A DNA stretch of 64,000 nucleotides from an uncultured Alphaproteobacteria bacterium (GTDB taxonomy: Bacteria; Pseudomonadota; Alphaproteobacteria; Rhizobiales; Xanthobacteraceae): the NCBI GenBank assembly GCA_963817045.1, contig CAWFMZ010000038.1, positions 45,797 to 109,796 on the forward strand, in the 5' to 3' direction. The notes beneath the pieces are model-generated. The model ran no database searches, was not told the origin of the DNA, and saw nothing but the letters and a program-made list of their open reading frames with translations. Positions 46,460-64,000 of this stretch are shown here, piece by piece. The number at the start of each line of letters is the position of its first letter. Position 1 is the stretch's first letter. The position numbers were made by a program, and so were the translations under genes.

Positions 46460-46600
46460 CGATGGGGATGGAGTCCCCCGAAACCGCCCGTAACGGCTGA
46501 TGACTCCTACCGTCTTTTTAGTTTGCGCATGATCTTTTCCGAAAACCGGTCCCCATCCCCGATCGGGGTCGAGGACATGCTTTTCGGGATCATGCGCGCG
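46460..46600. repeat. REP-like inverted repeat element (GCGCATGATCTTTTCCGAAAA ... CTTTTCGGGATCATGCGC)
   Basis: Long imperfect palindrome read directly from the sequence. Resembles a widespread rhizobial intergenic repeat (from memory). Confidence 0.55.
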
Positions 46601-46714
46601 GAACGGTAGGATTCGATCGGTCGAGCGAGGCGGATTTTCTATGTCAATTTCGCGCCGCCACGCTTCCGATCCCGCGTCGGCTTGGTGCCGCACGCGCACA
46701 ATGGAGCGTGACTG

Positions 46715-47854: not shown

Positions 47855-47855
47855 C

Positions 47856-48275: not shown

Positions 48276-48285
48276 CGCGCGGTAC

Positions 48286-49269
48286 TTAAACCATCGGCCG
48301 CAGGCCGAGATTATCCAACAGCGCCATGTCGCGGTCGCGCTCGGGGTTGGGCGTGGTGAGCAGCTTCGGTCCGTAGAAGATCGAATTGGCGCCGGCGAGG
48401 AAACACAAAGCCTGCGTCTCCTCGCTCATGTCCTCGCGCCCGGCCGAGAGCCGCACCACCGAGGCCGGCATGCAGATGCGCGCCACGGCAATGGTGCGCA
48501 CGAAATCGAGCGGATCGAGCTTGGCGCTGGCTGCGAGCGGCGTGCCTTCCACCTGCACCAGCATGTTGATCGGCACGCTCTCCGGATGCACCGGCAGGCT
48601 GGCCAGCGTCGCGATCATGCCGACGCGGTCGTCCAGCCCCTCGCCCATGCCGACGATGCCGCCGCAGCAGACATGGATGCCGGCTGAGCGCACGTGATCG
48701 AGCGTGTCGAGGCGATCCTGGTAGGTGCGCGTGGTGATGATGGCGCCGTAATATTCCGGCGAGGTGTCGAGGTTGTGGTTGTAGTAGTCGAGGCCGGACG
48801 CTTTCAGCCGCGCCGCCTGCTCGCTGGTCAGCATGCCGAGCGTGGCGCAGGTCTCGAGCCCCAACGCCTTCACGCCCTCCACCATGGCGCAGACCTGGTC
48901 GAGTTCGCGGTCCTTAGGGCTGCGCCAGGCCGCGCCCATGCAGAAGCGCGAGGCGCCGCTGGCTTTCGCGGCGCGCGCTTCGCTGAGCACCGCGTCGAGG
49001 CTCATCAGCTTCTCGGCCTTGACGCCGGTGTCGTAGCGCGCGGCCTGCGGGCAATAGCCGCAATCTTCCGGGCAGCCGCCGGTCTTGATCGACAGCAAAG
49101 TCGAGATCTGCACTTCGGTGGGATCGAAGTTCTCCCGATGCACCAAACTGGCGCGGAACATCAATTCCGGGAACGGCAGTTCGAACAGCGCGCGTACCTC
49201 CGCGCGGGTCCAGTCGTGGCGGGGCCGGTTCGCAGCCGTGTGCGGCGCGGTCGCGTGGGCAAGTGACAT
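48286..49269 (-). CDS. bioB: biotin synthase
   Basis: 327 aa with radical-SAM motif [10 protein letters not shown] and typical BioB C-terminal region. Confidence 0.95.
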
Positions 49270-49427
49270 CCGTTACCTCAGTTGCGCCGGAATCTCCGGG
49301 CAGGCTCACGATCGCATTCTAACGAGGCGGCGGCGAAGTTTATAGCCGCCGAAAAGCCTGATTGCGCCGCGATTTCATCGGATTGAGAGCCCAAAGGCGG
49401 CATGCTAGCCTTTTGGACGGGGAACAT

Positions 49428-49679
49428 ATGGGTAGTGCCGTGGCAAGATATATCGTCGCACTGGTGTTGCTGGCCGCCTTCGCGGGGCCTGTTTTCGCCG
49501 AGGAAGCGATACCTGACGATCCGCAGGTGCTGGAGCGCATACAAAAGAAAAAGGAAGCCGAGGCGCTTGATAAGCAATACAAGTCCACGCTCAAGAGTAC
49601 CAACCAGGCGACCACGCCGGTGCGCTCCGATCCGTGGCAAAATATGCGCGGGGCCGACGATTCCAAAACCAAGCGCTAA
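49428..49679 (+). CDS. small secreted hypothetical protein
   Basis: ATG at 49428 within ORF 49362..49679. Signal peptide MGSAVARYIVALVLLAAFAGPVFA followed by a charged tail. Confidence 0.55.
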   Translation: MGSAVARYIVALVLLAAFAGPVFAEEAIPDDPQVLERIQKKKEAEALDKQYKSTLKSTNQATTPVRSDPWQNMRGADDSKTKR

Positions 49680-49691
49680 CGGCCGGCTCGC

Positions 49692-49871
49692 ATGAACCGA
49701 CAGGCGATCGGACGAATTGTCTCGGTGCTGGTCGGCGCCGCCGTGCTGTTCGGACTGCAGCAGGGCCTCGGCCTGCAGCTCTACATCGCCATCCCGCTGG
49801 CCGTGGTCGTTTACCTCGCCGTCAAGGTTGCGTTCGGCCTGCTGTGGGGCGCCGACGACAAGGCGACGTGA
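49692..49871 (+). CDS. candidate 59-aa two-TM membrane peptide (below ORF-track cutoff)
   Basis: MNRQAIGRIVSVLVGAAVLFGLQQGLGLQLYIAIPLAVVVYLAVKVAFGLLWGADDKAT. Strong GC3 bias. Starts 13 nt after the previous stop. Confidence 0.45.
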   Translation: MNRQAIGRIVSVLVGAAVLFGLQQGLGLQLYIAIPLAVVVYLAVKVAFGLLWGADDKAT

Positions 49872-50001
49872 ATCCCGTTTAAGCGACGGCGATCATCGCC
49901 GCCACGTTGACTTGTATCAATGTGTCGATGCGGCTCTTAATGTCGTTATTCTTTTTTGAGTTCGGGTGCGTTCCGGGGAATTCCGGTCGAGGGAGAAACA
50001 T

Positions 50002-50973
50002 ATGTCCATTTTGGCCCGGGCGGTCACGCTATGCGCCCTGATGCTGCTGTCGCTAATCCCTGCCAGCGCGCAGAATTGGCCTAACAGACCGATCAAGATC
50101 ATCGTCTCGCAGGCTGCCGGCGGCACGCCCGACCTGATCTGCCGGATCATCAGCGACAAGTTGTCGATCTTGTTGGGACAACGGGTCTTCGTCGAGAACC
50201 GTCCCGGCGGAGCGAATGTGGTCGGCGCAACGGTGGCCGCTCACGCACCGGCTGACGGCTACACTCTGTTCTTCGCGACCGCTGCCGCGCTGGTGAGCAA
50301 TCCCCATACGTTCAAAACCTTGCCCTACAATCCGGTCAATGATTTCGTCGCGGTTTCCATGGTGGCAAAGAATCCTTTCTTGATTCTCGCCAACGCCAAC
50401 TTGCCGGCCAACAATCTTTCCGAGCTGGTCGCGTACGATAAGGCAAACCCGGGAAAGCTGACCTTCGCGACCGACGGGCCGAGAAATTTCTCCGGCATCC
50501 TGGCCACCTGGCTCAATAAAGTCAGCGGCGCGAACATTCTGCAGGTGCCGTACGCGACCATGCCGCAAGGCGTGCAAGACACGCTGGCGGGGCGCACCCA
50601 ACTCACGATCCTGTCGCCTCCGTCGGCGGCGCCGCACATCGCCAGCGGCGCGCTCAAACCGCTGGCCATCAGCTGGACCAAGCGCTTGCCGCAATACGCG
50701 CAGGTGCCCTCGATTTCCGAAGCCTATCCCGGGATCGAACTCACCGGTTGGTTCGTGATCGCCGCGCCGGCTGGCACGCCGGCGGACGTCATTACGCGGT
50801 TGAATCAAGAGATGGACAAGGTTCTCAAGTCTCAGGACATGGTGCAAAGGCTTGCCGACGTCGGTTTCTTTACCGAGGGCGCCGAGACACCCGAGGCAAC
50901 GCGCACCTTCGTAAAAGCCCAGTACGATCTCTGGAGCAAAGTCGTTCAGGAGATCGGTCTGCAGCCGGAGTGA
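50002..50973 (+). CDS. Bug family (TctC-like) substrate-binding protein
   Basis: ATG at 50002 within ORF 49966..50973. Signal peptide. QNWPNRPIKIIVSQAAGGTPD. Confidence 0.9.
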   Translation: MSILARAVTLCALMLLSLIPASAQNWPNRPIKIIVSQAAGGTPDLICRIISDKLSILLGQRVFVENRPGGANVVGATVAAHAPADGYTLFFATAAALVSNPHTFKTLPYNPVNDFVAVSMVAKNPFLILANANLPANNLSELVAYDKANPGKLTFATDGPRNFSGILATWLNKVSGANILQVPYATMPQGVQDTLAGRTQLTILSPPSAAPHIASGALKPLAISWTKRLPQYAQVPSISEAYPGIELTGWFVIAAPAGTPADVITRLNQEMDKVLKSQDMVQRLADVGFFTEGAETPEATRTFVKAQYDLWSKVVQEIGLQPE

Positions 50974-50990
50974 AGATAGCGTGCGATGCG

Positions 50991-52227
50991 TTACCGCCGC
51001 AGGCGAGCAAATGACGCATGTCCCGCAAAGGCGCTTTCAAAATGAGCAAGCGTGCCCTTCGATGATTTTTGTGGGATTCCCGATCGAGCCGATTCCCACG
51101 GCGCACCGGGCAAGCGCTGCGTCGCGAGAAACCAGTCCGCCGGGCTCTCTCCGACGACGTCGCGAAAATTGCAATGCCTTGCCGGCTCGCTGAGCAGCCC
51201 GAGCCATAAAATCATGAAATCCAGCGCAGAACGCGCCGGTGTCCGCGTTTCCGCGACGTAACGGATGACATTGCGCGAAATTTTTTCGCGTAATTCCGGC
51301 AATAAAAGCAGCATTTGCAACAATGAAACGCATTCCTCGGTGGACTGCGCAACAAATCCGGTCTCGCCATCGCGGACGGTCGCCATTTCCGCGGGATTGT
51401 TCAGCACGACGGGCGTCAGTCCCAGAGACATCGCTTCAATGAGCGCGTTCTCCGCCGTGCCGTAGTGATCACGCTGCAAAGGATAGAAAAAGATGTCGGC
51501 CTCCGAAAGCGCGACAGCGGGCTCTGCTGTTTCGCCACAAAATTTGACGCGCTCTGGATGACGCATGGCGCCAGCGCGGGCAGCCACCGGGCCTGACGGA
51601 TCGACGGAACCCCAAACCGAAACTTCGAAATCGTTGCCGACCAGCCGATCGATGGCGTCGAAAAATCCCGGATGCATTTTGACGAAATCAACAGTCCCGA
51701 GATACGCGATGACAGGTTTTCTGTTTCGCGAGCGCGCGTGTCGCAAGCCATCGGGAAAACCGAAGCCGCTATTGATAACGGAGATTTTCTTTCGTGCCGT
51801 CTCCGGCAGAAGGGCTATCGAGCGGAATCGAGCGCGAAGCTTCAGTCGTGAAGACGAAGCGCCCGGCCTCTTCCATCAGACCGGGTTGAATCAGCGGTTT
51901 GGAGAGGCCTGAAATGTGCGACCAGAACACGCTGCGCATCGCGGGAAAAGCGGACTGGGCAACGCACTCAAACAGACGGGGATGGTTCCAGAACTCGAAC
52001 TGGACAATGTCGGCCGCACTCGCCAATCGCGCTACCTGATCGAGCCCATCGGCGACGATAACGCGCGCTCCGCCGGCTTCGATTATATCCGCGTAGCGGC
52101 GGTCGCGGGGCTCCTCAAGAAGCAGAAAGGTCTGCTGCACCGCCTCTTTGGGCAAGGCGCCGCTGAGGGCCGCATGAGCTTTGCCGACACCTCCGCCCAG
52201 GTGCGGCGTAACATGCAGGATCTTCAT
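50991..52227 (-). pseudogene. glycosyltransferase (GT4-like), apparent frameshift near 51800
   Basis: N-terminal 152 aa (MKILHVTPHLGGGVGKAH..., ORF 51769..52227) and C-terminal 251 aa (ORF 50991..51746, extendable upstream as KKISVINSGFGFPDG) are in different frames. Confidence 0.75.
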
Positions 52228-53301
52228 TCCGCCGCCACGTTGGTGAACTCGCGCGCGCCGCCCGGCGCCTCGATGGCCGGATTGACGGGGACGAGCTTCT
52301 TGAACTTGTCCAGCAGCACCAGGCGGTGAGCGTCGATATTGTCAGGCAGGCAGTGGCTGAGCTGTCCGCAATTGCCGCAGACGCCGTTCTGCTTCCGGCG
52401 GCCCTCGAGATGCTGCAAACGCAGCGCATTCATGCGGTCGGAATTCCAGATCTCCTTCATCGACTGCTGCCGCACGTCGCCGATCACGAGCTTGCGGCCC
52501 CAGTCCAGGAAGCAAGAGCTGACGAGACCATCGGCGTTCACCGAATAGCCGTAGAAAATGTAAGGACATGTGTCGGTTTCGCCGATGTCCTGCTGGTATA
52601 TGCCTTTGCTGATTTTGACGCCGGTATGTTTCTCGATATCGAATTCCGGCCAGCAGGGCGCAAAGTTCTCAACGAAAATGCGGTCGCAATGGTCGCCGAA
52701 CGTGTCGAAGAACTCCTGGCGCTGCGCCTCGGTGATGAGTTCGCCGGGAATCTTGACGACGATTTCGCAGCTGCCTTTGTTGTCGTACAGCCATTTGACG
52801 TTTTCGACGAATTTCTTGAAGTCGAACTTGAATCCGGTGAATTTCGCGTAGGTCTCCTCGGTCATGCCGTCGACCGAGATGTTGATCTTGTCGATCCCGG
52901 CTTCGATCACGGGGCCGACGCGGTCGGGAGAAATGAATGTGCCGTTCGTGGTCGTGTCGATGTAGTCGACATGCTTCGACCGTCTTCGCATAGGCGACCA
53001 TGTCGGCCAGCCGCTTGTTGAGGAACGGCTCGCCGTCCTTGTACATGCGCAGGACTTTGATCGGCTTGTCGAATTCGCCGAGGTCGTCGACGATCTTCTG
53101 AAAGACGTCGAGCTTCATCACGCCCTGAAAGCGCCCGGTCTCGGCGATCATGTCGCGATGGCCGGTCGGGCAGAACGTGCATTTGAAATTGCACGAGCTC
53201 GCCGGATCGACGAAGACGATGAAGGGCGTGGCAAGCGGGATGACCGTCTCCAGCGCCGTGCGTCCCTCGAGATTGATTCGCGGTTCTAGCCGAGCTTTCA
53301 T
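52224..53301 (-). pseudogene. radical SAM/SPASM-like domain protein, apparent frameshift near 52990
   Basis: CNFKCTFCP (CxxxCxxC) in ORF 52669..53301. Continues after ...ADMVAYAK as RSKHVDYIDTTTNG... in ORF 52224..52991, with Cys-rich C-terminus (CPYIF, SSCFLDW, CGNCGQLSHC). Confidence 0.8.
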
Positions 53302-53411
53302 GCGCGTTTTCCTGCAACGAGCGGCGTCGGCTCAATGTCCTATAAGACAATGGTTAACAGGGATTAACCAAGCTTCCGGGGGCGTATCGGGGGCAGGCGA
53401 AAAGCGCCGGT

Positions 53412-54260
53412 CTAGCCGGCGGCGCGCACGCCGACGACGCAGGGCGGATCGACTAAATTGTCCGGACGGGCGCCGAAACAGAGCAAATCGCGGCGCCCGT
53501 ATTCGTCGGCGATTCGCTCGGCAAGCTGTCGTATCGTCATGGGCACGCCGGAGCAGATGTTGACCGGACCTTGCACTGCGCCGAGCGCGGCTTCCACGAT
53601 CATCCGGCCGGCGTCGCGCACATCCAGGTAGTCGCGAATCTGTTTGCCGCTGGTCAGCTCGGCCGGTTCTCCGGCCATGAGTTTGCCGCGCAGATAGGGC
53701 ACCAGCCGCCGCTCGTTCTCGCCCTCCCCGTAGAGATAAAACAGCCGGCACCAGGCAAACTCGAACGCCGTTGCTGCGGCAGCGATCGCGACAGCTGCCG
53801 TGAAGGCGGCGACCTTTGCCTCGGCATAGGGCGTCGATGGCCGCAGCGCCGTATGGATGCTCAAATGGCCGGCGCTCAGGTCATATTCGAAACAGGTGCC
53901 GATACCGACAAAGCGGCGAACCTTGGCCTCGGCCGCCCCTTGCGCAAGCCGCAAGGTTCCCGCCAGACAATCCGAATTCTTCGGCGATTGAAGATACTCG
54001 CCCGGCTCGGCATACCATGCGACGTGGATCACGCTATCGACGCCGCGACAGACATCGGCCCACCATGCGGCGCTTTCGGACCACAAATCCGGCGTCGCGA
54101 CGATCTTTTCGATCGCGGTCGACGGTGCAATCCGATCCTGCGTTCCTGCTCTGACGACGGCACGTACTCGGTAATTTCGCTTGGCAAGCTCTCGCAGCAC
54201 CTGCCGACCGACAAAGCCGGTCGCTCCGGTCAGCAATATCAACGCGGGAGCAGCGGCCAT
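53412..54260 (-). CDS. NAD-dependent epimerase/dehydratase family protein
   Basis: ATG at 54260 within ORF 53412..54302. GATGFVG Rossmann motif, YAEAK catalytic motif. Confidence 0.85.
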   Translation of the reverse strand: MAAAPALILLTGATGFVGRQVLRELAKRNYRVRAVVRAGTQDRIAPSTAIEKIVATPDLWSESAAWWADVCRGVDSVIHVAWYAEPGEYLQSPKNSDCLAGTLRLAQGAAEAKVRRFVGIGTCFEYDLSAGHLSIHTALRPSTPYAEAKVAAFTAAVAIAAAATAFEFAWCRLFYLYGEGENERRLVPYLRGKLMAGEPAELTSGKQIRDYLDVRDAGRMIVEAALGAVQGPVNICSGVPMTIRQLAERIADEYGRRDLLCFGARPDNLVDPPCVVGVRAAG

Positions 54261-54769
54261 TTGGCGTCCTTGTCCGATACGTTCGGAACGGCACGCGGCC
54301 ACTTGATGGCCAGCCGCGGATCGTCAAATCGCAAGCCGCCTTCGGAGTCCGGAGCGTAAAACGAGCTCACCATGTAGAACGCCGTGGCGCCGTCGCTCAG
54401 CGCCTGGTAGCCGTGTGCAAATCCTTTCGGCACGTACATCATCAGTCCGTTTTCTTCCGACAGCTCGGCGCCGAACCAGCGAAGATAGGTTTTTGAGCCT
54501 TCGCGCATATCGACGATGACGTCGTAGATCGTCCCTCTGGTGCAGCGCACGAGCTTGACTTCGGCATGCGGCGCGCGCTGAAAGTGCATTCCGCGCACCG
54601 TGCCGGCACGCGCATTGGTGCTGATATTTGCTTGCACAAACGAAGTTTCGAAACCATGCGCGGCAAATTCCTGCGCACAAAAAGCGCGGGCGAACGTGCC
54701 GCGCTGGTCCACGCGCGGATCGAGGTGGATCAGATATCCGCCGGTTAATGGTATCGTTTCAAATCGCAT
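54239..54769 (-). CDS. dTDP-4-dehydrorhamnose 3,5-epimerase family (RmlC-like cupin) protein
   Basis: 176 aa. DQRGTFARAF, RGMHFQ and GFAHGY motifs. Confidence 0.85.
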   Translation of the reverse strand: MRFETIPLTGGYLIHLDPRVDQRGTFARAFCAQEFAAHGFETSFVQANISTNARAGTVRGMHFQRAPHAEVKLVRCTRGTIYDVIVDMREGSKTYLRWFGAELSEENGLMMYVPKGFAHGYQALSDGATAFYMVSSFYAPDSEGGLRFDDPRLAIKWPRAVPNVSDKDAKWPLLPR

Positions 54770-54799
54770 GGTGTTGCCGGTGCAAGACGCTGCGCCGCG

Positions 54800-55925
54800 T
54801 TAACTGCACATTTTCACGTCGGCAGCCGTCGCGGCAGGCCGGCTCAACGATCGTTTCTCAAAGTCGGAAATATCGGCATCACAGAGCTGCCGTGCATTCG
54901 CACCCGCTTTATGGGCGCGATACCAGGCCATCGTCGCGTTGACCGCTTGCGCCAGCGTCAACGTGGGTGTCACGCCGAGTACCGTTCGCGCTTTAGCAAC
55001 TTCCAGAGTGAGCCATGCGGATTCGTGCGGGCCTTCTGTGCCGTCGCCGTAATGCGCTTCGTCCCTCTCCATATGCGCGACGGGCCATTTCAACGAGTTC
55101 GCCGACGGAAACGGTCTCGCTAGGGCCCGGCCCGAAATTATACGCGTCGGCAGGCGCGGATCGCTCCCACAGTTTGCGCGCCAAAGTCAGATAGGCGGCG
55201 AGCGGCTCCAGCACGTGCTGCCAAGGCCGAACGGCCAACGGGGTCGGACCTGCAAGAATCCGCCCCGCCTGCCAGGCGCGAACAGCATCGGGAATCACGC
55301 GGTCGTCCGACCAGTCGCCGCCGCCGATCACGTTTCCGGACCGGGCGCTCGCCACCGCCACGCCCTGCGCGGACAAGAAACTGGCCCGATAGCTGGCGAT
55401 GACGATTTCGCAGGCGGCCTTGCTGGCGCTGTAAGGGTCCTGTCCGCCGAGCGCATCGTCTTCACGATATGGCCGAGCGATTCGTGATCGCGGTAGACCT
55501 TGTCGGTCGTCACCATCACGGCGACCCGCACGCTGTCGAGCCCACGCAGCGCATCCAGCACATGGGCGGTGCCCATCGCATTGGTCGCGAACGTCGCAAG
55601 CGGTTCTCGATAGCCCGCGCGTACCAGTGGCTGAGCCGCCAAATGGAAAACGATCTCCGGCCGCGCCGCTTGGACGAGATCGGCGAGCGCCGCCAGCATC
55701 GCGAATATCGCAAAAACGGCTCTGGCAAAGAGCGCCGATATCGGCCTCGGAATAAAGGTTGGGCGCTGTCGCCGGCGGCAGGCTGATGCCCGTCACCTCG
55801 GCTCCCAGCCGATGAAGCCAGAGCGTCAGCCAGGAGCCCTTGAAGCCGGTATGACCCGTGAGCAGGACGCGCTTGTCGCGCCAGAACGAAGCACTTGTTG
55901 CGTTCGTCAATGCCAGATTTTCCAT
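54800..55925 (-). pseudogene. rfbG: CDP-glucose 4,6-dehydratase, at least three frame disruptions
   Basis: FWRDKRVLLTGHTGFKGSW (ORF 54993..55946), PEIVFHLAAQPLVR...TTDKVY (ORF 55328..55699), DPYSASKAACE (back in the first frame) and the C-terminus in ORF 54800..55093. Shifts are near 55700, 55460 and 55090. Confidence 0.8.
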
Positions 55926-56682
55926 GGCGCCTTGCCGGATGCCCAAAGCTCTTCCAACATCGTCTTGTCGCGCAAGGTATCCATCGGCTGCCAGAACCCG
56001 CGATGTTCGAACGCCATCATCTGGCCCATGGCTGCGAGACGGATGATGGGCGAGCCTTCCCAGCTGCTGTCATCGCCGTCGATGAGATCGAGACAACTCG
56101 GCGACAGCACAAAAAAGCCGCCATTGATCATGCCGCCGTCACCGCGCGGCTTCTCGATGAACCCGGTCACCTCGTCCCCTGAGCGTTCCAACGCGCCATA
56201 GCGGCCGGGCGGGCTGCACCGCCGTGACCGTGGCAGCTTGCCGTGACGACGATGGAATTCGATCGGATGATCGAATGTTCACATTGCTGACGCCGTCGCC
56301 ATAGGTAAAGCAAAACGCCTCTTCATCTTTGACGTAGTCCGCGACGCGCTTGAGACGCCCGCCGGTCAGCGTGTTTTCGCCGGTATCGACCAGCGTGACG
56401 CGCCACGGCTCGGCCTTTCTCTGATGCACGACCATGCTATTGTCCGCCATGTCGAAGGTGACGTCGGACATGTGCAGGAAGTAGTTGGCGAAATATTCCT
56501 TGATGACATAGCCCTTGTAGCCGCAGCAGATCACGAAATCATTGACGCCGTGCGCGGAATAGATCTTCATGATGTGCCAGAGAATCGGCTTGCCGCCGAT
56601 TTCGATCATCGGCTTGGGCTTCAGGTAGCTCTCCTCGGAAATGCGAGTGCCGAGGCCACCGCGCGAGGATGACGACTTTCAT
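55907..56682 (-). pseudogene. rfbF: glucose-1-phosphate cytidylyltransferase, about four frame disruptions
   Basis: MKVVILA at 56682, then [40 protein letters not shown] (ORF 56139..56609), [14 protein letters not shown] in another frame, ATVTAVQP, then [35 protein letters not shown] (ORF 55907..56191). Confidence 0.85.
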
Positions 56683-56736
56683 GGAATTTCTTGATGCGTT
56701 GACATCCAGCCCCCAGGTAAACAGAACCACGCACTT

Positions 56737-57513
56737 TCAGACTGCACGTCTTTCGGCCACGACGTTGGCAACACGCGGTATCGGCTCGTTTGTTGAGGAT
56801 CGAATTCCAGAATTCAAAATAGTTTCTGCGTGGCCTTTGGAAAACAGAGCGATCAGGCTGCAAATTTCCGTCAGCATGTCCTGAAATGACAGTTGCCCCG
56901 TCGATATCAGCAATTTCGCGCACAGCTTGTCGGCTTCGCCCGTGAAACGGGACTCAAAAGTGAGCCGCGCATGACCTTTGAAGCGCATAAACATTCCTGA
57001 AAACCAGTGGTCCGCGATGACTTGGCGCTGGGCGAGCGTAGTCGAAATTGTCCGTTGGAAAAGAGCGAAATAAAACACTGAAACGAAAACGAATCGCCTT
57101 CGCCAGCCGGAAAGTTTCGGAAAATTCGTAGAATGTCGCACGTCGGCGATGACAATATTGCAATTATCGCGCCGGCAGTGAGCGAGAAATTCGCGCTTTT
57201 GCGCGACGCCCGAACTGCGTGGACGAGGGTTTCGATATCCGGAGAGGCCCAGGAACAGGCCTGGGCGATTTTAGAACATGCCAGCATGCCCGTCCGGTTG
57301 CGTCGCTAGTAAAATTGATAGTTGCATGAATTCGCGCCGGTCGTCGGCGCAATCGATGACGCGCCGACTGCTGGACACCGGGTTTGTGCCGCACTCAGCG
57401 GCGCGTTCAACGTTTGTAAATGTTCGCTCGATAAACACTATAATCTGGCGCTGGCGATTTGTTCTGTCCCTCAGGGTAAACTGGTAGTGCCGGCAAGAGG
57501 TGCTACTATGCAA
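56737..57513 (-). pseudogene. degraded ORF of unknown function (one ~259-codon frame with an in-frame TAA)
   Basis: ORFs 57271..57513 and 56737..57141 are in the same frame. That frame is open throughout except for the TAA that ends the first ORF. Low GC3. Only weak methyltransferase-like hints (VIDCADD, NIVIADV). Confidence 0.25.
57386..57415 (+). repeat. hairpin direct repeat, copy 1 (GTGCCGCACTCAGCGGCGCGTTCAACGTTT)
   Basis: 29 of 31 aligned columns are identical to 58236..58266. GC stem with an ACTCA loop. Confidence 0.8.
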
Positions 57514-57607
57514 AGAATGATAGCGGCGGCCCCCCTTTCATTTCGGCAGAAGTCATTCGGCGCACCGAAGCCGCGCATTCAAAAGGCCACCGGATATCGA
57601 TCAGGCT

Positions 57608-58007
57608 GCAATGCTGCTGGCGGAATTGGCAACGGCGCCGTGCGCATATTCTCCGGTAGCAGCGGACGTGCCACTTGTCTCTATGGCGGGGAAATATGAT
57701 CTATCTATCGCGCGAATTTTGGCCAAGAGTGGACCACGATCCTGTCATGGTGATCGACCGTGATGCGCGACGCTGCACAAGAGCATATATGATGGCGAAC
57801 GGTTGGTGCATCCTGACGAGCGGCGGAACTTGCAAGGATGGGCTTCGCATCGCCGTTAGCGTGGTCACTCTCTCTATGTGCCGCTTGAACGGTCGCTTGC
57901 AGCAACTAGGTTTCGAAGATATCGTGCCGTTCTATGACTTGGCGGAGAGTTTCCGCGGAGTGCATCCATTGTCGAATGGCTGGTTTGCGCACCGCTGTCT
58001 GCGTTAG
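57608..58007 (+). pseudogene. truncated, frameshifted ORF resembling the N-terminal Rossmann-like extension of some FkbM-type methyltransferases
   Basis: PLVSMAGKYDLSIARILAKSG in one frame joins HDPVMVIDRDARR...LQQLGFEDIVPFYDLAESF in ORF 57675..58007 (shift near 57731). No catalytic domain follows. The family assignment is weak. Confidence 0.3.
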
Positions 58008-58020
58008 ACCAGGAGAAGAC

Positions 58021-58234
58021 GGCTAAGGTTATGGGCGTTGGGAGAGATGTGTAAGGTATATTTGAATTTATGGTTGGGCAGATGAGGAGGAATGGGTTTT
58101 GATGGTTTACCTGAATGAAAGTTTTTTATTAGGAAGTGGAAGGTTTAAGAGATGAATTTTGTTAGATGGGGCTAGATGAGGTGTGAAAGTTTTGTGAGTT
58201 TAGAAGGATATTTTGGGATGGATTGAATGAATAA
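58021..58234 (+). other. 214-nt cytosine-depleted, G+T-rich tract (G74 T74 A60 C6)
   Basis: Direct base count. 37% GC against about 65% elsewhere. No ORF of 60 aa or more. 12 ATG. Repeated TAGATGRGG and TGAAAGTTTT words. Confidence 0.9.
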
Positions 58235-58235
58235 C

Positions 58236-58266
58236 GTGCGCGCACTCAGCGCGCGTTCAACGTTTT
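58236..58266 (+). repeat. hairpin direct repeat, copy 2 (GTGCGCGCACTCAGCGCGCGTTCAACGTTTT)
   Basis: Direct repeat of 57386..57415. AACGTGCGCGC-ACTCA-GCGCGCGTT hairpin. Marks the return to core-genome composition. Confidence 0.8.
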
Positions 58267-58317
58267 GATGTCCTTGATGCGGATTGCGGCAGAGGCCGCG
58301 CTGCTAGTCAGGGTGCC

Positions 58318-58665
58318 ATGGGCGACGACGATTTCCGCGATGAGATCGCGCAACTCGAAGCACGCAGCGAGGCGCTGACGGAATCGATCGCGCGCTGCGG
58401 CAAGATTTCGCTGGCCGCCAAGCTCAGCATCGCCGCCGGAGCGATCTGGATCGTGCTCGTGTTGCTGGGAGTGATCCCATTTTTCCCCGGCACCATCATC
58501 GCCGCGCTGGCGGCCGTGATCGGCGGCACCGTGCTGTTGGGTTCGAATGCGACCACGTGGACGCAAGCCGAAGCCGACCTGCGCGCCGCCGAGGCGACGC
58601 GGGCGGACTTGATCGGGCGGATGCAGTTGCCCGTGGTGGGAGAGGAACGGCCCACGTTGAATTGA
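58318..58665 (+). CDS. hypothetical membrane protein
   Basis: 115 aa with an N-terminal coiled segment and two TM segments (LSIAAGAIWIVLVLLGVIPFFPGTIIAALAAVIGGTVLL). High GC3. Confidence 0.65.
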   Translation: MGDDDFRDEIAQLEARSEALTESIARCGKISLAAKLSIAAGAIWIVLVLLGVIPFFPGTIIAALAAVIGGTVLLGSNATTWTQAEADLRAAEATRADLIGRMQLPVVGEERPTLN

Positions 58666-58755
58666 GCGCGGTACATCCCTCCCCGCTCATACCCGAGAAC
58701 GCAGACATCCGGTCATCATGCTACAAAGACACCCACCCCGTCCGAAAGAGCCTCC

Positions 58756-59004
58756 ATGCCAGATGTCCCGCCCGACCGCCTCTGCAACGATCCACGCAGT
58801 CCCTATTTCAACGAGAAAGCGCTCGCGCGCGACGTCGGCATCCGGTTCAAGGGCGTCGAGAAATCCAATGTCGAGGAATACTGCGTCAGTGAAGGATGGA
58901 TTCGGGTCGCGGTCGGCAACGCCAAGGACCGGTTTGGCAATCCGCTAACGATCAAGCTGACCGGGAAAGTCGAGCCTTATTTCAAGAATAAGAAGCCGGC
59001 ATGA
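58756..59004 (+). CDS. DUF3297 family protein
   Basis: 82 aa. PPDRLCNDPRSPYFNE...CVSEGWIRV, typical of DUF3297 as I remember it. Confidence 0.7.
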   Translation: MPDVPPDRLCNDPRSPYFNEKALARDVGIRFKGVEKSNVEEYCVSEGWIRVAVGNAKDRFGNPLTIKLTGKVEPYFKNKKPA

Positions 59005-59035
59005 TGAGATAGGCGAGCGTAAGGTAGAACGCCCC

Positions 59036-61830
59036 CTACTCCGCCGCCTGCTGCCGCGCCCCCGCCGCCTCCACCTTGGCCGCGCAGAATTTGAATTCCG
59101 GAATCTTGCCGAACGGATCGAGCGCCGGGTTGGTCAGGATATTGGCCGCCGCCTCGACGAAGGCGAACGGGATGAACACCACGCCGTCGGGGATGGCGTC
59201 GTCCTGGCGCGCGGCTAGCTCGACCTCGCCGCGGCGCGTGGTGACGCGCAGCATGTCGCCGGGCTTGAGCCGAGCTTCTCGAGCGTGCCGCGCGAGACCG
59301 AGGCGCACGCGCTCGGCTCCAGCGCGTCGAGCACGGAGGCGCGCCGCGTCATGGCGCCGGTGTGCCAATGCTCGAGCTGGCGGCCGGTGGTGAGGATGAA
59401 CGGGTAGTCGTGGTCGGGCGTCTCGTCCGGCGGCGTGAGCTTGGCTGCCACCAGCTTGCCGAAGCCGCCCGGGCGCGGGAAGCCCTTGTCGAACACCACG
59501 TCGCGGCCCGGCTGGTCCGGCGCGTCGGTCGGATAGGTGACGTGATCCTCGCGCTCGACGCGCTCCCAGGTGATGTTGTCGAGCGCCGGCATCAGCTGCG
59601 CCATCTCCTCGAACACTTCGCCGACGTGCTTGTAGTTCCACTTCTCGCCCATGCGCTGGGCGAGATCCTGGATGATCCACAGATCCTGGCGCGTGTCGCC
59701 CGGCAGCGGCAGCGCCTTGCGGCCCATCTGCACCTGGCGGTTGGTGTTGGTGACGGTGCCGTCCTTCTCCGGCCAGGCGCGAGGCCGGCAGGATCACGTC
59801 GGCATAGGAGCAGGTCTCGGTGAGGAAGATGTCCTGCACCACCAGATGTTCGAGATGGGCGAGCGCGCCGCGCGCGTGATTGAGATCGGGGTCCGACATC
59901 GCCGGGTTTTCGCCCATGATGTACATGCCCTTGATCTCGTCGGCATGCACCGCGTCCATGATCTCGACCACGGTCTTGCCGCGCTTGGGATCGAGTTTCT
60001 TGCCCCAGGCCTTTTCGTATTTGGCGATCATCTCCGGGCTCTCCACCGACTTGTAGTCGGGGAAGAACATCGGAATGAGGCCGGCGTCGGAGGCGCCCTG
60101 CACGTTGTTCTGGCCGCGCAGCGGATGCAGGCCGGTGCCGGGACGGCCGACCTGGCCGCAGATCAGCGACAGCGCGATCAGGCAGCGCGCATTGTCGGTG
60201 CCGTGGGTGTGCTGCGACACGCCCATGCCCCAGAAGATGATGGCGCTTTCGGCGCGCGCGTAAGAGCGCGCCACTTCGCGCAGCGTGTCGGCGGGGATGC
60301 CGCAGATCGGCGCCATCTCCTCCGGCGTGAAGTCCTTGATGCTGCTCGGCGAAGGGGGCGAAGCCTTCGACGTAGGTCTGCACATATTGCTGGTCGTACA
60401 GCTTCTCGGTGACGATGACGTTGAGCATGGCGTTGAGCATCGCCACGTCGGTGCCGTTCTTGAACTGCATCATCTGCCAGGCGTGGCGCTTGAGCGCCTG
60501 CCCGCGCGGGTCCATCACCACCAGCTTGGCGCCGCGCTTGGCCGCCTGCTTGAAGAAGGTGGCGGCGACCGGATGGTTCTCGGTCGGGTTGGCGCCGATG
60601 ACGATGATGAAATCGGAATTCTTGCACTCGTTGAAGGTGGCGGTCACCGCCGCCGAGCCGACGCCTTCCAAGAGCGCCGCCACCGACGAAGCGTGACAGA
60701 GCCGCGTGCAGTGATCGACATTGTTGGAGCCGAAGCCGGTGCGCACCAGCTTCTGGAACAGATAGGCCTCTTCGTTCGAGCCCTTGGCCGAGCCGAAACC
60801 GGCGAGCGCACGCGGGCCGTCGCGGTCGCGGATTTTCTTGAGGCCCGAGGCGGCGCGCTGCATCGCCTCTTCCCAGGTCGCTTCGCGGAAATGCGTGAAC
60901 GGGTTGGCCGGATCGACCAGATCGTCGGCGGATTTCGCTACGCCGTCCTTGCGCACCAGCGGCTTCATCAGGCGCTGCGGATTGCTGACATAGTCGAAGC
61001 CGAAGCGGCCTTTCACGCACAGCCGGTTCTGGTTGGCCGGGCCGTCGCGGCCGGTGACGTAGAGCAGCTTGTCGTTCTTGATGTGGTAGGTGAGCTGGCA
61101 GCCGACGCCGCAATAGGGGCACACCGAGTGCACTTCGCGGTCGGGGAATTCGCGTGCGCACGTTCTTGGCGTCGACCAGCGTCGCCGGCATCAGCGCGCC
61201 GGTCGGGCAGGCCTGCACGCATTCGCCGCAGGCCACGCAGGTCGAATTGCCCATCGGATCGTCGAAGTCGAACACGATCTTTTCGCCGTGGCCGCGGCCG
61301 GCCATGCCGATGACGTCGTTGACCTGCACTTCGCGGCAGGCGCGCACACACAGATTGCACTGGATGCAGGCGTCGAGATTGACCGCCATGGCCGGATGGC
61401 TGCGATCGGCCTCGGGATGATGGCGCTTGCCGAAGCGGCTGGTGGCGACGCCCATGCGGTCGGCCCAGGCCCAGAATTTCGACTGCGGATCGTGCGCCAG
61501 CGTCTTGCGCTCGGGCTGGTCGGAAATCAGCAGCTCGAACACCATCGCCCGCGCGGTCTTGGCGCGCTCGGAGGCGGCCTTCACCTTCATGCCGTCGCTC
61601 GGCTTGCGGATGCAGCTCGCCGCCAGCACGCGCTCGCCTTCGATCTCCACCATGCAGGCGCGGCAATTGCCGTCGGCGCGGTAGCCGGGCTCGGGCGAAT
61701 AGCACAGATGCGGGATGTCGGTGCCGAGGCGCTTGGCCACCTGCCAGATGGTCTCGCCCTCGAGCGCCTCGACTTCCTTGCCGTCGAGGATGAATTTCAC
61801 CGATTTGCCGGCGCCGTTGCCTGTGGTCAT
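59036..61830 (-). pseudogene. NAD-dependent formate dehydrogenase alpha subunit (FdsA/Fdh1A-type), four frame disruptions
   Basis: N-terminal Fe-S domains (CRACMVEI, CIQCNLCVRAC, CVACGECVQACP), then the Mo/W-bisPGD domain (VCPYCGVGC, HCTRLCHASSV). Pieces are in ORFs 60178..61830, 59592..61133, 59036..60385 and 59215..59733. Shifts are near 61150, 60360, 59775 and 59280. Confidence 0.9.
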
Positions 61831-61846
61831 TGCGTCGTGCCTTCCG

Positions 61847-63558
61847 TCACCAGGTTCCCAGCGGTTTCGACAGTTCTTCGGGAAAATACTTTAGCACGCA
61901 TAATAGCGGATTGGGCGCCGCCTGGCCGAGGCCGCAGATCGAGGCGTCGCGCATGGCGGCCGAGAGTTCCGTCAGCAGCGCGGGGTCCCAGGGGCCCTGC
62001 GCCATCAGCTTGACCGCCTTTTCGGTGCCGGCCCGACAGGGCGTGCACTGGCCGCAGCTTTCGTCCTCGAAGAACTTCATCAGATTGAGCGCGACCGCCT
62101 TCATATCGTCCTGGTCAGACAGGATGACAACCGCGTGCGAGCCGACGAAGCAGCCGTATTTTTCGAGCGTCCCGAAGTCGAGCGGCTCGTCCGCCATGGA
62201 GGCCGGCAGGATGCCGCCCGACGCCCCGCCCGGCAGATAGCCTTTGAAGGTTTCGCCGTCGATCATGCCGCCGCAGAATTCCTCGATCAGTTCGCGCGCA
62301 GTGACGCCGGCCGGCGCCAGCACCACGCCCGGCTTCTTGACGCGGCCGGAGACCGAGAAGCTGCGCAGGCCTTTGCTACCGCGACGGCCTTGCGAGACAA
62401 ACCAGGGCGCGCCCTTTTCGACAACGTCGCGGATCCAATACAGCGTCTCGACGTTCTGTTCGAGCGTCGGGCGGCCGAACAGGCCGACTTGCGCCACGTA
62501 AGGCGGACGATGGCGCGGCAGCCCGCGCTTGCCTTCGATCGACTCGATCATCGCCGACTCTTCGCCGCAGATATAAGCGCCGGCGCCGCGCCGCAGATGC
62601 AGCTTGGTGTGCGGGGACAGCCCGGCCTTCTCGGCCTTCTCCAATTCCTGCGCCAGCATCAGCCGCAGTTCCGGATATTCGTCGCGGATGTAAATGTAGG
62701 TCTCCGGTGCCTCGACCACCCAAGCCGCGATCAACATGCCTTCGATGAAACGGTGCGGATCGCGTTCGAGATAAAAGCGGTCCTTGAAGGTGCCGGGCTC
62801 GCCTTCGTCGGCGTTGACGGCGAACAGACGCGGCGCGGGTTCCGCGCGCACCAACTGCCATTTGCGGCCTGTCGGGAAGCCCGCGCCGCCGAGGCCGCGC
62901 ACGGCCGCGTCGGTGGCGATCTTGATGAGGTCGTCGCGCGTACGCTTGCCCGACGAGACAATCCTTCAGCAGCGCGTAGCCGCCCGTTTTTTGATAGGCG
63001 GCGAAATCAGCGCCGGGATGCCAGGCGTGCGGATGCTTGTTCGCTTTCACGTCGGCCGCAACTTTGTCGGCCGTCGCCTTGAACGTCTGCAAGTGCCCGA
63101 CCGCGACGACCGGCGCGCGGTCGCAGGCGCCCATGCAGGGCGCGCGCACCACGCGCACGTCCTTGCCGAGAATGGCCGGCAATTTCTTCAACAGTGTCTC
63201 GGCGCCCGGCCATCGCGCAGGACAGCGAATTGCACACCCGCACGGTCACCGCCGGCGGCGCGGGTCCGTCCTTCACCACGTCGAAATGCGAATAGAAGGT
63301 CGCGACCTCGTAGACCTCGGTCTGCGCGAGCTTCATCTCCTGCGCCAGCGCGGCGAGATGGGCGGCGGACAGATAGCCGTAATGATCCTGGATCAGGTGC
63401 AGGTGCTCGATCAGAAGATCGCGCCGGCGCGGCCGGTCGGTGAGCAGCGCGCGCACCTCCTCGAGCGCCGCGGGGTCGACCTGGCGGCCCTTCGGCGTGC
63501 GCGGCGGCCGGCGGCGCTTGCCCGCTTTGTCGTCCGGCGATTGGGTCTTGAGAGCCAT
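61847..63558 (-). pseudogene. formate dehydrogenase flavoprotein subunit, NuoE-NuoF fusion (Fdh1B-type), two frame disruptions
   Basis: ATG at 63558. NuoE-like 2Fe-2S ligands VCNSLSC and APCMGACDRAP, then the NuoF-like domain (GLGGAGFPTGRKW, GAGAYICGEE, ESCGQCTPCR). Shifts are near 63205 (extra G in a G-run) and 62945. Confidence 0.85.
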
Positions 63559-63581
63559 GAACGTCTTTAGCCGGAACTCGG

Positions 63582-64000
63582 TCAGGCCACCTTTACTGTC
63601 ATATGCCGGAACATGGCATTGCGCGCTTCTTCGTCGAACTCGGTCTTGAACTTGTGCTTGCCCCTGAGCTCGTTGGCCCGCGCCGCCGCCGGCCGCGCGG
63701 AGATCTCGTCCACCAGCCGCTTCAGGTTGGGGAACTTGGCCCAGTCTTCCTCGCCCAGCGCGTTCGGAACGAGCCGCGCCCAGCCCCACAGCGCCATGTC
63801 GACGATGGTGTAGCTGTCGCCGACCACGTATTTCTGCTTGGCGAGGCGCGCTATCGAGAATGACCGAAGTGGCGCTGCGCTCTCGTAGGTGTAGCGGTTG
63901 ATGCGCGTAGGGAATCTTTCTCCGGCGCGTATTGGCGGAAATGCACCGACTGGCCGGACGAACGGACCGACGCCGGAAGCGACGAACATCAGCCAGGACA
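63582..64000 (-). CDS. glutathione S-transferase (YghU/YfcG-like), N-terminus beyond right edge
   Basis: C-terminal domain INRYTYE...LAKQKYVVGDSYTIVDMALWGW...ISARPAAARA. A ~17-codon stretch (about 63905-63955) matches the family (GPFVGQSVHFRQYAPEK) only in a shifted frame. Confidence 0.8.
   Translation of the reverse strand, partial: SWLMFVASGVGPFVRPVGAFPPIRAGERFPTRINRYTYESAAPLRSFSIARLAKQKYVVGDSYTIVDMALWGWARLVPNALGEEDWAKFPNLKRLVDEISARPAAARANELRGKHKFKTEFDEEARNAMFRHMTVKVA

What the first reader, a model, noticed from the sequence alone, without database searches (positions are those of the whole stretch)
58021..58234. 214-nt almost cytosine-free tract tiled by gap-free mini-ORFs at the island/core junction
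Direct count on the + strand gives G74, T74, A60, C6, which is 2.8% C and 37% GC. The rest of the window is about 65% GC with balanced G and C, and I saw no other stretch with comparable strand asymmetry. The tract starts 14 nt after the stop (58007) of a truncated ORF. It ends one nucleotide before a conserved hairpin repeat (58236), where composition returns to core values. Internal words recur: AGATGAGG at 58080, TAGATGGGG at 58163 and TAGATGAGG at 58173 (the last two exactly 10 nt apart), and TGAAAGTTTT at 58116 and 58184. ATG occurs 12 times, against about 7 expected from the tract's own composition. Five tiny ORFs of 10, 17, 7, 16 and 13 codons tile 58070-58268 with no gap. Every stop overlaps or abuts the next start: TGATG at 58100, ATGA at 58152, TAG-ATG at 58173 and TGA-ATG at 58224. 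My rough estimate is that such a four-junction chain arises by chance at the 1e-2 to 1e-3 level given the composition. A + strand transcript would be nearly unable to form G-C pairs, and a - strand transcript would be G-free. I cannot match this to any element class I know in alphaproteobacteria. It could be a novel unstructured RNA or a reinitiation cassette, a protein-binding array, foreign DNA, or an assembly artefact.
Basis: seen in the sequence. Interest (0 to 1): 0.8.

Follow-up and report, generated by a model that had tools for sequence, protein, structure and literature searches.

The report
Cytosine-stripped pseudogene remnant at deletion junction
The almost C-free tract is not a new RNA or mini-gene cassette: it is the tail of a broken methyltransferase gene in which nearly every cytosine on one strand was deleted or miscopied, next to a 4.4-kb deletion, and it is more likely a long-read sequencing error than a real mutation scar.

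Summary
Window 58021-58234 has G74 T74 A60 C6, and the next-poorest 214-nt stretch has 41 C.

The tract is not foreign or new sequence. It aligns base for base with the next ~240 nt of a methyltransferase gene that is intact in two related contigs (L007, L011). A, G and T are kept at 87-88%. C is kept at 3-4 of 77-78 sites. Of the lost C, 35-36 are deleted, 20-21 became T, 12 became A and 6 became G.

The loss starts sharply at about 58037. It ends at about 58235, where 4.4 kb present in those relatives is missing and a 26-nt copy of a hairpin from 850 nt upstream is inserted.

The repeated words come from unrelated ancestral words. The mini-ORF tiling is rarer than chance (P about 5e-4, tested after it had been noticed), but it is made entirely of the debris of this event.

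No relative carries the tract, including three same-species contigs. The window's consensus is noisy, with several frameshifted conserved genes.

Best reading: a read or consensus artefact in a noisy, probably nanopore-only assembly at a strain-variable junction (about 0.55). Rival: a real break-associated, strand-specific cytosine hypermutation scar (about 0.3). A functional element is unlikely. Raw reads would decide.

The parts
50991..58235 (.). Strain-variable island of sugar-nucleotide / O-antigen-type genes. It is absent from same-species contigs L012-L014 except for three short remnants.
   Evidence: L012 1-5781 matches window 45221-50990, and L012 5927 onwards matches window 58236 onwards. 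Remnants match 56787-56852, 57046-57081 and 57342-57415.
57508..58234 (+). Pseudogene of a predicted SAM-dependent methyltransferase with an N-terminal Rossmann-like part, homologous to L007 5001 to about 5782. It is frameshifted and truncated.
   Evidence: Searches give protein homologs P0002-P0012. Searches give the DNA alignments. L007 5461-5955 reads as 165 open codons. The Pfam link is indirect: in L010 the ORF that follows the homologous stretch hits PF05050 (FkbM domain) weakly; the L007 stretch itself gives only Methyltransf_23 at E 0.084, and the clear PF05050 hit of L007 (6233-6871) is a separate downstream ORF.
57675..58007 (+). It is one reading-frame fragment of the pseudogene.
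   Evidence: One search lists the ORF. One search finds 45-64% identical homologs. Its last codons are out of frame relative to the homologs.
58021..58234 (+). The tract as flagged (G74, T74, A60, C6).
58037..58234 (+). The cytosine-stripped segment proper. It corresponds to about 240 nt of L007 (5541 to about 5782) and of L011.
   Evidence: C retained 4/77 (against L007) and 3/78 (against L011). Non-C bases retained 146/165 and 141/163. Fisher P about 1e-38. Lost C: 35-36 deleted, 20-21 to T, 12 to A, 6 to G. C retention just before the segment (57940-58036) is normal, 20/25.
58070..58268 (+). Chain of five mini-ORFs with overlapping or abutting stops and starts. It is a by-product of the C loss and no function is inferred.
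58235..58240 (.). Junction. Homology to the methyltransferase gene ends here. About 4.4 kb present in L007 (about 5783-9953) is missing.
57390..57415 (+). Hairpin copy 1 (GCACTCAGCGGCGCGTTCAACGTTT region), at its native position upstream of the pseudogene.
   Evidence: (D11).
58241..58265 (+). Hairpin copy 2, a 26-nt near-copy (96%) of copy 1 placed at the junction. Its right flank is confirmed in L012, L013 and L014.
58276..58289 (+). 7-nt tandem duplication (GCGGATT GCGGATT-like), private to the window.
58318..58665 (+). Conserved core gene for a 115-aa predicted membrane protein. It is the first gene after the junction.

Best explanation
**What it is.** The tract is the last ~200 nt of a truncated, decaying methyltransferase pseudogene. 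Almost every cytosine of the + strand has been dropped (about half) or replaced (T > A > G), while A, G and T were left as they were. It has no function of its own. The excess of ATG and stop codons, the mini-ORF chain and the recurring words are debris of that base-specific loss.

**Most likely cause.** The public sequence is wrong here. The window comes from a noisy, probably nanopore-only, metagenome assembly. The tract lies exactly where co-occurring strains differ in structure. The consensus over these ~200 nt probably rests on one or very few aberrant or strand-discordant reads in which C was systematically not called.

**Shown:**
- the homology to the gene in relatives;
- the C-specific spectrum;
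- the sharp borders;
- the junction;
- the noise level of the consensus;
- the strain heterogeneity at this locus.

**Inferred:**
- that the loss happened in reading or consensus rather than in the cell;
- that the window's contig was made in the same way as its relatives.
For: **Identity**
- The window is syntenic with L007 on both sides of the tract.
- The tract aligns to the continuation of the same gene in two independent references. Non-C positions are 87-88% retained and C positions 4-5%.

**Noisy assembly**
- fdhA (59036-61830) is split over at least three frames, and the dehydratase-like gene 54993-55946 over at least two.
- The same genes are single ORFs of 899-929 aa in L012 and L014.
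- There are 14 indel events in 5.7 kb against L014.
- All close relatives come from one ENA project. The matching published pipeline is nanopore reads, Flye and one round of Medaka (PMC12313526).

**Structural heterogeneity at this spot**
- Sample ERZ25039488 holds both the island form (contig_94154) and the island-less form (contig_94155).

**Uniqueness**
- The pseudogene's protein cluster has one member among about 15 billion proteins.
- The tract was not found in JGI metagenomes, IMG/VR, phages or plasmids.

**No later evolution**
- The T, G and A sites of the tract show 0-1 changes to C. About 3.5 would be expected at the rate seen in the adjacent pseudogene.

**No known in vivo process**
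- I know of no cellular process that removes about 95% of C in all sequence contexts with half of the events being single-base deletions (context table; the comparison rests on my own knowledge).
Against: - I know of no documented sequencing or polishing artefact that erases one base while leaving its neighbours correct. Two literature searches found none.
- Non-C bases in the tract show only the divergence of the adjacent pseudogene, with no collateral errors.
- The window's errors elsewhere are mostly single-base insertions, not C deletions.
- The tract abuts a junction whose right side is confirmed in three independent contigs.
- The affected strand is the one that would be left single-stranded by 5'-to-3' resection of a break at that junction. 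A real event predicts this; an artefact has no reason to produce it.
- The adjacent pseudogene looks genuinely old: 4-5 times more private changes than the flanks, biased GC to AT. The truncated haplotype is therefore probably real.
- I could not confirm the platform or coverage of the window's own contig.
Confidence: 0.55

Rival explanations
1. **A real scar of break repair.** A double-strand break in the methyltransferase gene was resected 5' to 3', leaving about 240 nt of the + strand single-stranded.

Then one of two things happened:
- its cytosines were damaged (for example deaminated to uracil and excised to abasic sites) and an error-prone polymerase copied across them; or
- the complementary strand was refilled without dGTP.

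Either route gives skips (single-base deletions) and misinsertions (T > A > G) at every C.

The end was then joined to the far side of a 4.4-kb deletion, with a 26-nt insertion templated from 850 nt upstream. This would be a bacterial, near-saturated analogue of break-associated mutation showers (kataegis).
For: - The loss is strictly strand-coordinated and base-specific, with sharp borders.
- It ends exactly at a rearrangement junction.
- The polarity is as expected for a 3' overhang (inference).
- The junction carries a locally templated 26-nt duplication. Its right side is seen in L012, L013 and L014.
- The L012-type hairpin looks like a recombinant of copies 1 and 2. That would make the window form ancestral.
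- The substitution order T > A > G and the frequent single-base deletions resemble polymerase behaviour at non-instructive or unmatched template bases (my own knowledge, not tested).
- Neighbouring bases are clean.
- The host pseudogene is old and probably real.
Against: - It has been seen once, in a noisy consensus.
- About 95% of C were hit in all contexts, with no deaminase-like motif. That density is orders of magnitude above known kataegis.
- Bypass of about 73 lesions in 240 nt is hard to credit.
- There is no complementary G loss on the other side of the junction.
- No new C has arisen since, which is in mild tension with an old event.
Confidence: 0.3
2. **A functional element.** On this reading the tract is either a leader of translationally coupled mini-ORFs, an unstructured C-free (or G-free antisense) RNA, or a protein-binding array that regulates the downstream 115-aa gene.
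For: - The mini-ORF chain is rarer than chance: P about 3e-4 to 6e-4 under dinucleotide shuffles and under simulated C-stripping of homologous or random coding sequence.
- ATG is enriched (P about 0.01-0.02).
- The - strand transcript would be almost structureless apart from the hairpin.
Against: - The tract is absent from all relatives, including same-species contigs that have the same downstream gene.
- Every ATG and stop derives from an ancestral coding sequence by loss of C.
- The repeated words have unrelated ancestors and are not significant.
- There is no Rfam hit, promoter or terminator, and the + strand fold is no better than shuffles (z = 0.30).
- The tiling statistic was computed after the pattern had been noticed.
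Confidence: 0.04
3. **Targeted mutagenesis by a reverse transcriptase.** A diversity-generating-retroelement-like system copied an intact template repeat into this site with base-specific infidelity.
For: The loss is base-specific and confined to one strand of a defined segment with a sharp 3' border.
Against: - There is no intact second copy of the segment anywhere in the 64-kb window.
- The base affected is C, not A.
- Half the events are single-base deletions, which destroy the frame.
- The target is a pseudogene.
Confidence: 0.02
4. **Foreign or contaminant DNA.** On this reading the tract is an IS, phage, plasmid, vector or eukaryotic fragment whose composition reflects its source.
For: Only the atypical composition.
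Against: - Non-C positions are 87-88% identical to the syntenic gene of relatives.
- There are no meaningful hits in plasmids, phages, IMG/VR or JGI metagenomes.
Confidence: 0.01

Closest known systems
Consensus errors in low-coverage, strain-mixed nanopore-only metagenome assemblies
   Same: - It occurs once, in a contig with frequent frameshifts in conserved genes.
- It lies at a site where co-assembled strains differ structurally.
   Different: - Known errors are scattered indels, homopolymer errors and methylation-motif substitutions.
- I know of no described error mode that removes one base over about 200 nt while the other three bases stay correct.
Kataegis: break-associated, strand-coordinated cytosine mutation showers (AID/APOBEC on resected single-stranded DNA in yeast and human tumours)
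   Same: - It is C-specific and confined to one strand.
- It is clustered, adjacent to a rearrangement junction, and on the strand expected to be the 3' overhang.
   Different: - About 95% of C were hit, rather than one in hundreds to thousands of bases.
- There is no TpC or WRC context preference.
- Half the events are single-base deletions.
- To my knowledge this has not been described in natural bacterial genomes.
Diversity-generating retroelements (adenine-specific mutagenic retrohoming)
   Same: Base-specific changes confined to a defined segment.
   Different: - The wrong base is affected (C, not A).
- Deletions are present.
- There is no template repeat in the window.
- The target is a dead gene.
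Bisulfite-converted DNA and the synthetic G-less cassette
   Same: One strand almost lacks C, and the complement almost lacks G.
   Different: - Bisulfite gives only C to T and no deletions.
- The G-less cassette is a designed sequence.
- Here the sequence is homologous to a native gene.
Ordinary bacterial pseudogene decay (deletion bias, GC-to-AT bias)
   Same: - The host gene is a decaying pseudogene at the edge of a shrinking island.
- The pre-tract part shows a GC-to-AT-biased excess of changes on both strands.
   Different: Decay affects both strands (G as well as C) and is gradual. The tract is one-stranded, near-complete and sharply bounded.

Membership tests
Remnant of the syntenic methyltransferase gene (pseudogene) | Sequence homology to the gene of relatives, continuing in register from the upstream ORF | tested here: met
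   Non-C positions are retained at 146/165 (L007) and 141/163 (L011). The alignment continues from 57082 to 58234.
Remnant of the syntenic methyltransferase gene (pseudogene) | Conserved gene order on both sides | tested here: met
   Window 54000-57044, 57082-58043 and 58299-58873 match L007 979-4035, 4558-5546 and 9954-10528. L011 gives the same pattern.
Remnant of the syntenic methyltransferase gene (pseudogene) | Assignment of the parent gene to the FkbM methyltransferase family (PF05050) | tested here: inconclusive
   The L007 stretch homologous to the tract gives only a weak Methyltransf_23 hit (E 0.084). In L010 the ORF that follows the homologous stretch hits PF05050 weakly. The clear PF05050 hit of L007 (6233-6871) is a separate downstream ORF.
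Kataegis-like break-associated cytosine hypermutation | Strand-coordinated, C-specific cluster | tested here: met
   C retained 4/77 against G retained 60/72 on the same strand.
Kataegis-like break-associated cytosine hypermutation | Adjacent to a rearrangement breakpoint | tested here: met
   It ends at about 58235, where 4.4 kb of L007 is missing and a 26-nt duplicate is inserted.
Kataegis-like break-associated cytosine hypermutation | Deaminase sequence-context preference (for example TpC) | tested here: not met
   C was lost after A, C, G and T alike. Retained counts are 1, 1, 2 and 0.
Kataegis-like break-associated cytosine hypermutation | Base substitutions (C to T, C to G) rather than deletions | tested here: not met
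   35-36 of 73-75 lost C are single-base deletions.
Kataegis-like break-associated cytosine hypermutation | The mutated sequence is physically present in the organism's DNA | not testable with these tools
   No raw reads are available. No independent contig carries the tract.
Diversity-generating retroelement variable repeat | An intact template repeat nearby | tested here: not met
   L007 5500-9960 has no other match in the window.
Diversity-generating retroelement variable repeat | Adenine-specific substitutions without indels | tested here: not met
   A is retained at 40/45. C is the affected base and half the events are deletions.
Known RNA family (Rfam 15) | Covariance-model match at or near the gathering score | tested here: not met
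   The best overlapping hit scores 13.6 bits against a gathering score of 40, with E = 8.3.
Translationally coupled mini-ORF leader / reinitiation cassette | Stop/start overlaps beyond chance | tested here: met
   P about 3e-4 to 6e-4. The test was done after the pattern had been noticed.
Translationally coupled mini-ORF leader / reinitiation cassette | Conservation upstream of the same gene in relatives | tested here: not met
   Absent from L001-L006, L007 and L011-L014.
Mobile element, phage or plasmid fragment | Similarity to known mobile DNA | tested here: not met
   Only chance-level 25-36-nt matches were found. There was no IMG/VR hit.
Long-read assembly artefact | Independent signs of consensus error in the same contig | tested here: met
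   fdhA and a dehydratase-like gene are frameshifted in the window but fdhA is intact in L012 and L014.
Long-read assembly artefact | Read support is missing, single or strand-discordant over the tract | not testable with these tools
   Neither raw reads nor coverage are available.

The most novel reading that the evidence does not exclude
The tract is physically real. On this reading it is the fossil of one repair event in which about 240 nt of single-stranded DNA at a resected chromosomal break lost the coding capacity of essentially every cytosine. The cause would be enzymatic deamination and excision, or refilling under dGTP starvation (for example during nucleotide-depletion defence). An error-prone polymerase then copied across it, skipping or misreading each site, before end joining with a templated insertion.

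This would be the first natural bacterial example of saturated, strand-specific, break-associated hypermutation. It would also be a direct readout of how a bacterial translesion or end-joining polymerase treats about 75 consecutive uninstructive sites.
Probability: 0.3. Interest if true: 0.8.

Novelty: not a real feature. Interest (0 to 1): 0.35.

Why it matters
**If it is an artefact.** It is a useful warning. Long-read metagenome assemblies can contain base-specific garbage that looks like a striking new element. A single comparison with a syntenic relative exposes it. A scan for base-depleted tracts would be a cheap quality filter for such catalogues.

**If it is real.**
- It would show that bacteria can suffer kataegis-like, strand-specific cytosine hypermutation at chromosomal breaks, at a density never reported.
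- It would preserve the error spectrum of the polymerase that filled the gap: about 47% skips, then T > A > G.
- It would link that spectrum to a deletion that trimmed a surface-polysaccharide island.

Either way, the reading as an RNA or a mini-ORF cassette should be dropped.

Tried and rejected
- **Simple C-to-T deamination (bisulfite- or APOBEC-like).** Rejected. About half of the lost C are deletions, and A and G replacements are common.
- **DGR-type template/variable repeat pair.** Rejected. There is no second copy in the window.
- **Foreign DNA.** Rejected. There were no meaningful hits in plasmids or phages, IMG/VR or JGI metagenomes. The tract is homologous to a native gene.
- **Independent copy of the tract or of the same strain.**
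  - Exact protein look-ups for window genes found no contig in the DNA index.
  - Two JGI metagenome scans found nothing.
  - The GTDB scan gave only relatives at 72% identity or less.
- **Recurring artefact.** I looked for other base-depleted tracts in about 110 kb of related contigs from the same project. None was found; the lowest count was 12 C per 120 nt in L008. The sample is too small to say much.
- **Dislocation signature (substituted base equals a neighbour).** Weak and inconsistent: P = 0.03 with L007 and 0.13 with L011.
- **Sequence-context preference of the lost C.** None was found.
- **RNA structure, promoter, terminator, Rfam.** Nothing was found.
- **Literature searches for a matching nanopore artefact or for bacterial kataegis.** Nothing specific was found.
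- **MAFFT three-way alignment inside the tract.** It misaligns because of the many deletions (third block). Only the pairwise alignments are used for tract counts.

Full report
**1.

- Window 58021-58234 contains G74, T74, A60 and C6. The whole window is 64.5% GC with G about equal to C.
- In 214-nt windows the next-lowest C count anywhere in the 64 kb is 41, and the lowest G count is 47.
- GC skew reaches +0.75 only here.

**2. What the tract is**

- *The upstream ORF.* ORF 57675-58007 has homologs of 45-64% identity. These continue past its stop with '...HPLSNGWFAPPLTAADQE..WDDD.SRAHHLQFLAWRRLREEW...'.
- *A syntenic relative.* The contig encoding the closest homolog (L007) is syntenic with the window:
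  - window 54000-57044 matches L007 979-4035 at 93%;
  - window 57082-58043 matches L007 4558-5546 at 85%;
  - window 58299-58873 matches L007 9954-10528 at 95%.
- *A deletion.* The window therefore lacks about 4.4 kb of L007. That stretch holds the rest of the methyltransferase gene, an FkbM-domain methyltransferase (PF05050), an O-methyltransferase and a B12-binding protein.
- *Homology of the tract.* Aligned with ordinary scoring, the tract is the direct continuation of the gene.
- *The counts.* Against two independent references, for window 58037-58234:

| Reference | C retained | A, G, T retained |
|---|---|---|
| L007 | 4/77 | 146/165 |
| L011 | 3/78 | 141/163 |

  Fisher P is about 1e-38 for both.
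- *Fate of the lost C.* 35-36 were deleted, 20-21 became T, 12 became A and 6 became G.
- *Left border.* In the 97 nt before the tract (57940-58036) C is retained normally, at 20/25. The onset is therefore sharp, between 58036 and 58044.
- *Right border.* Homology runs to about 58234.
- *Context.* All 5' and 3' contexts of C are affected.
- *Ancestral sequence.* The corresponding L007 stretch reads as 165 open codons, so the ancestral sequence was ordinary coding DNA.
- *Summary.* The tract is a cytosine-stripped ghost of coding sequence. It is not foreign DNA and not a sequence class of its own.

**3. The internal 'signals' are debris**

- *Repeated words.* The two TGAAAGTTTT words correspond to the unrelated ancestral words ...GAATTGCGCCCGGTTTTT... 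and ...GTCGCAAGCCTTCGTG.... TAGATGGGG and TAGATGAGG correspond to TGGATGCCGG and CACCATGGCAGCG. Repeats of this size occur in 16% of shuffles.
- *ATG count.* 12 or more ATG has P about 0.012 (shuffles) to 0.02 (simulated C-stripping of the L007 segment).
- *Mini-ORF chain.* This is the one feature I cannot reduce to the process.
  - Chains with at least 4 junctions occur in 0.03% of dinucleotide shuffles.
  - They occur in 0.02-0.06% of simulated C-stripped versions of L007, L008, L010 or random window segments.
  - The test was run after the pattern had been noticed on an already odd sequence.
  - The chain is built entirely from ancestral ATGs and C-loss products.
  - I record it as unexplained and probably coincidental.

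**4. Context: the edge of a decaying, strain-variable island**

- *Same-species contigs.* The 115-aa protein just downstream has near-identical versions (1-2 residues different) on contigs L012, L013 and L014.
- *Four missing blocks.* Those contigs lack window 50991-56786, 56853-57045, 57082-57341 and 57416-58235. A TctC-family gene sits next to three short island remnants.
- *The hairpin.* Their single hairpin equals the left half of window copy 1 (57390-57415) plus the right half and right flank of copy 2 (58241-58265).
- *What is confirmed.* The right side of the junction is seen in three independent contigs. The left side, the tract, is seen only in the window.
- *Both forms coexist.* One sample (ERZ25039488) contains the full-island form (contig_94154, L011) and the island-less form (contig_94155, L014).
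- *Age of the pseudogene.* The part before the tract (57082-58036) carries 4-5 times more window-private changes than the flanks: C 22%, G 13.5%, T 9% and A 7%, against 4%, 4%, 2.6% and 1.5%. The excess is mostly GC to AT, with frameshifts. This looks like an old pseudogene. Non-C sites inside the tract show the same level of change.

**5. Quality of the window sequence**

- fdhA (59036-61830) is split over at least three frames, and the dehydratase-like gene 54993-55946 over at least two.
- fdhA is a single ORF of 899-929 aa in L014 and L012.
- Against L014 the window has 14 indel events in 5.7 kb.
- Private substitutions are rare: 8 in 5.7 kb.
- All relatives come from one ENA project with Flye-style contig names. 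The matching publication describes nanopore-only assemblies polished once with Medaka (PMC12313526).
- That the window's own contig was produced in the same way is an inference.

**6. How it arose**

Two explanations survive.

*(A) Technical.* The consensus over about 200 nt at a strain-variable junction rests on one or a few aberrant or strand-discordant reads in which C was not called.
- For:
  - the tract occurs only once;
  - the contig is noisy;
  - strains differ structurally at exactly this spot;
  - no new C has appeared (0-1 observed against about 3.5 expected at the neighbouring rate);
  - no known cellular process has this completeness and this share of deletions.
- Against:
  - I know of no described artefact that is this base-specific while leaving neighbours clean;
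  - the contig's other errors are insertions.

*(B) Biological.* A break in the gene was resected, leaving the + strand single-stranded.
- Mechanism:
  - either its cytosines became uninstructive (deamination plus excision), or the refill lacked dGTP;
  - an error-prone polymerase then skipped or misread each site (deletion > T > A > G);
  - the end was joined across 4.4 kb with a 26-nt insertion templated from 850 nt upstream.
- For:
  - strand coordination and sharp borders;
  - co-location with the junction;
  - the correct polarity;
  - the templated duplicate;
  - clean neighbouring bases;
  - an old host pseudogene.
- Against:
  - the density is far beyond any known mutation shower;
  - there is no context preference;
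  - there is no matching G loss on the other side of the junction;
  - it is a single observation.

I weigh a strong prior for technical causes in such data against a modest likelihood advantage for B. That gives A about 0.55 and B about 0.3.

**7. Readings rejected**

- *Functional element (unstructured RNA, reinitiation cassette, binding array), about 0.04.* The tract is absent upstream of the same gene in all relatives. There is no Rfam match, promoter or terminator, and the + strand fold has z = 0.30.
- *DGR-like mutagenesis, about 0.02.* There is no template copy, the wrong base is affected and indels are present.
- *Foreign DNA, about 0.01.*

**8. Verdict**

- The composition anomaly is real in the record, and its origin as sequence is now explained. 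It is a C-stripped tail of a methyltransferase pseudogene at a deletion junction on the edge of a shrinking polysaccharide island.
- Whether the stripping happened in a cell or in a sequencing pipeline cannot be settled without reads. I lean towards the pipeline.
- Interest is moderate only because the biological alternative, if confirmed, would be remarkable.

Noticed in passing
window 29067-29170 (wider: 29002-29215): There are 100 nt with no A on the + strand, and 7 A in 214 nt. This is a repetitive GC-rich stretch of GGCGGCTTCGGCTGTTGCTGC-type units. It probably encodes a Pro/Gln/Lys-rich repeat protein on the - strand. It looks like an ordinary low-complexity coding repeat and is unrelated to the C-free tract.
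   Followed up: partly
window 59036-61830 and 54993-55946: The formate dehydrogenase alpha-subunit gene is split over at least three reading frames. A CDP-glucose-dehydratase-like gene is split over at least two. The same fdhA is a single 899-929-aa ORF in the same-species contigs L012 and L014. These are most likely consensus indel errors of the window.
   Followed up: yes
window 50991-58235 against L012, L013 and L014: A roughly 7.2-kb island of sugar-nucleotide / O-antigen-type genes is missing from same-species contigs. Those contigs keep three short remnants (56787-56852, 57046-57081, 57342-57415), so the island was lost by several separate deletions. One soil sample contains both forms (contig_94154 and contig_94155 of ERZ25039488).
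   Followed up: yes
window 57699-57711: 'GATCTATCTATCG' replaces the 'GGGCCGGCTGGCG' found in both L007 and L011. That is three GG-to-AT doublet changes in 12 nt, giving an (ATCT)n-like run. Similar small low-complexity conversions (ATATATGAT, TCTCTCTAT) occur at about 57786 and about 57870. The cause is unknown.
   Followed up: no
window 58276-58289: A 7-nt tandem duplication (GCGGATT) is private to the window. It lies 40 nt after the junction and upstream of the 115-aa gene.
   Followed up: partly
window 57044/57082 against L007 4036-4557: The window lacks a further 522 nt that L007 has inside the degraded gene region on the - strand. A weak glycosyltransferase hit (PF00535) lies at the corresponding place in L011. 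This is another deletion in the same decaying stretch.
   Followed up: partly
window 57205-57232 and 57356-57388: Two similar ~30-nt words (GACGCCCGAACTGCGTGGACGAGGGTTT and GACGCGCCGACTGCTGGACACCGGGTTT) lie 150 nt apart in the window. They are not similar to each other at the corresponding L007 positions. The L012-type sequence looks like a fusion of the two. This suggests deletions between short direct repeats in this region.
   Followed up: no
L014 against window 58236-63908: L014's private differences are strongly GC-to-AT (G to A 37, C to T 23 of 96). Many are spaced at multiples of three, so they look like real synonymous strain polymorphism rather than error.
   Followed up: partly
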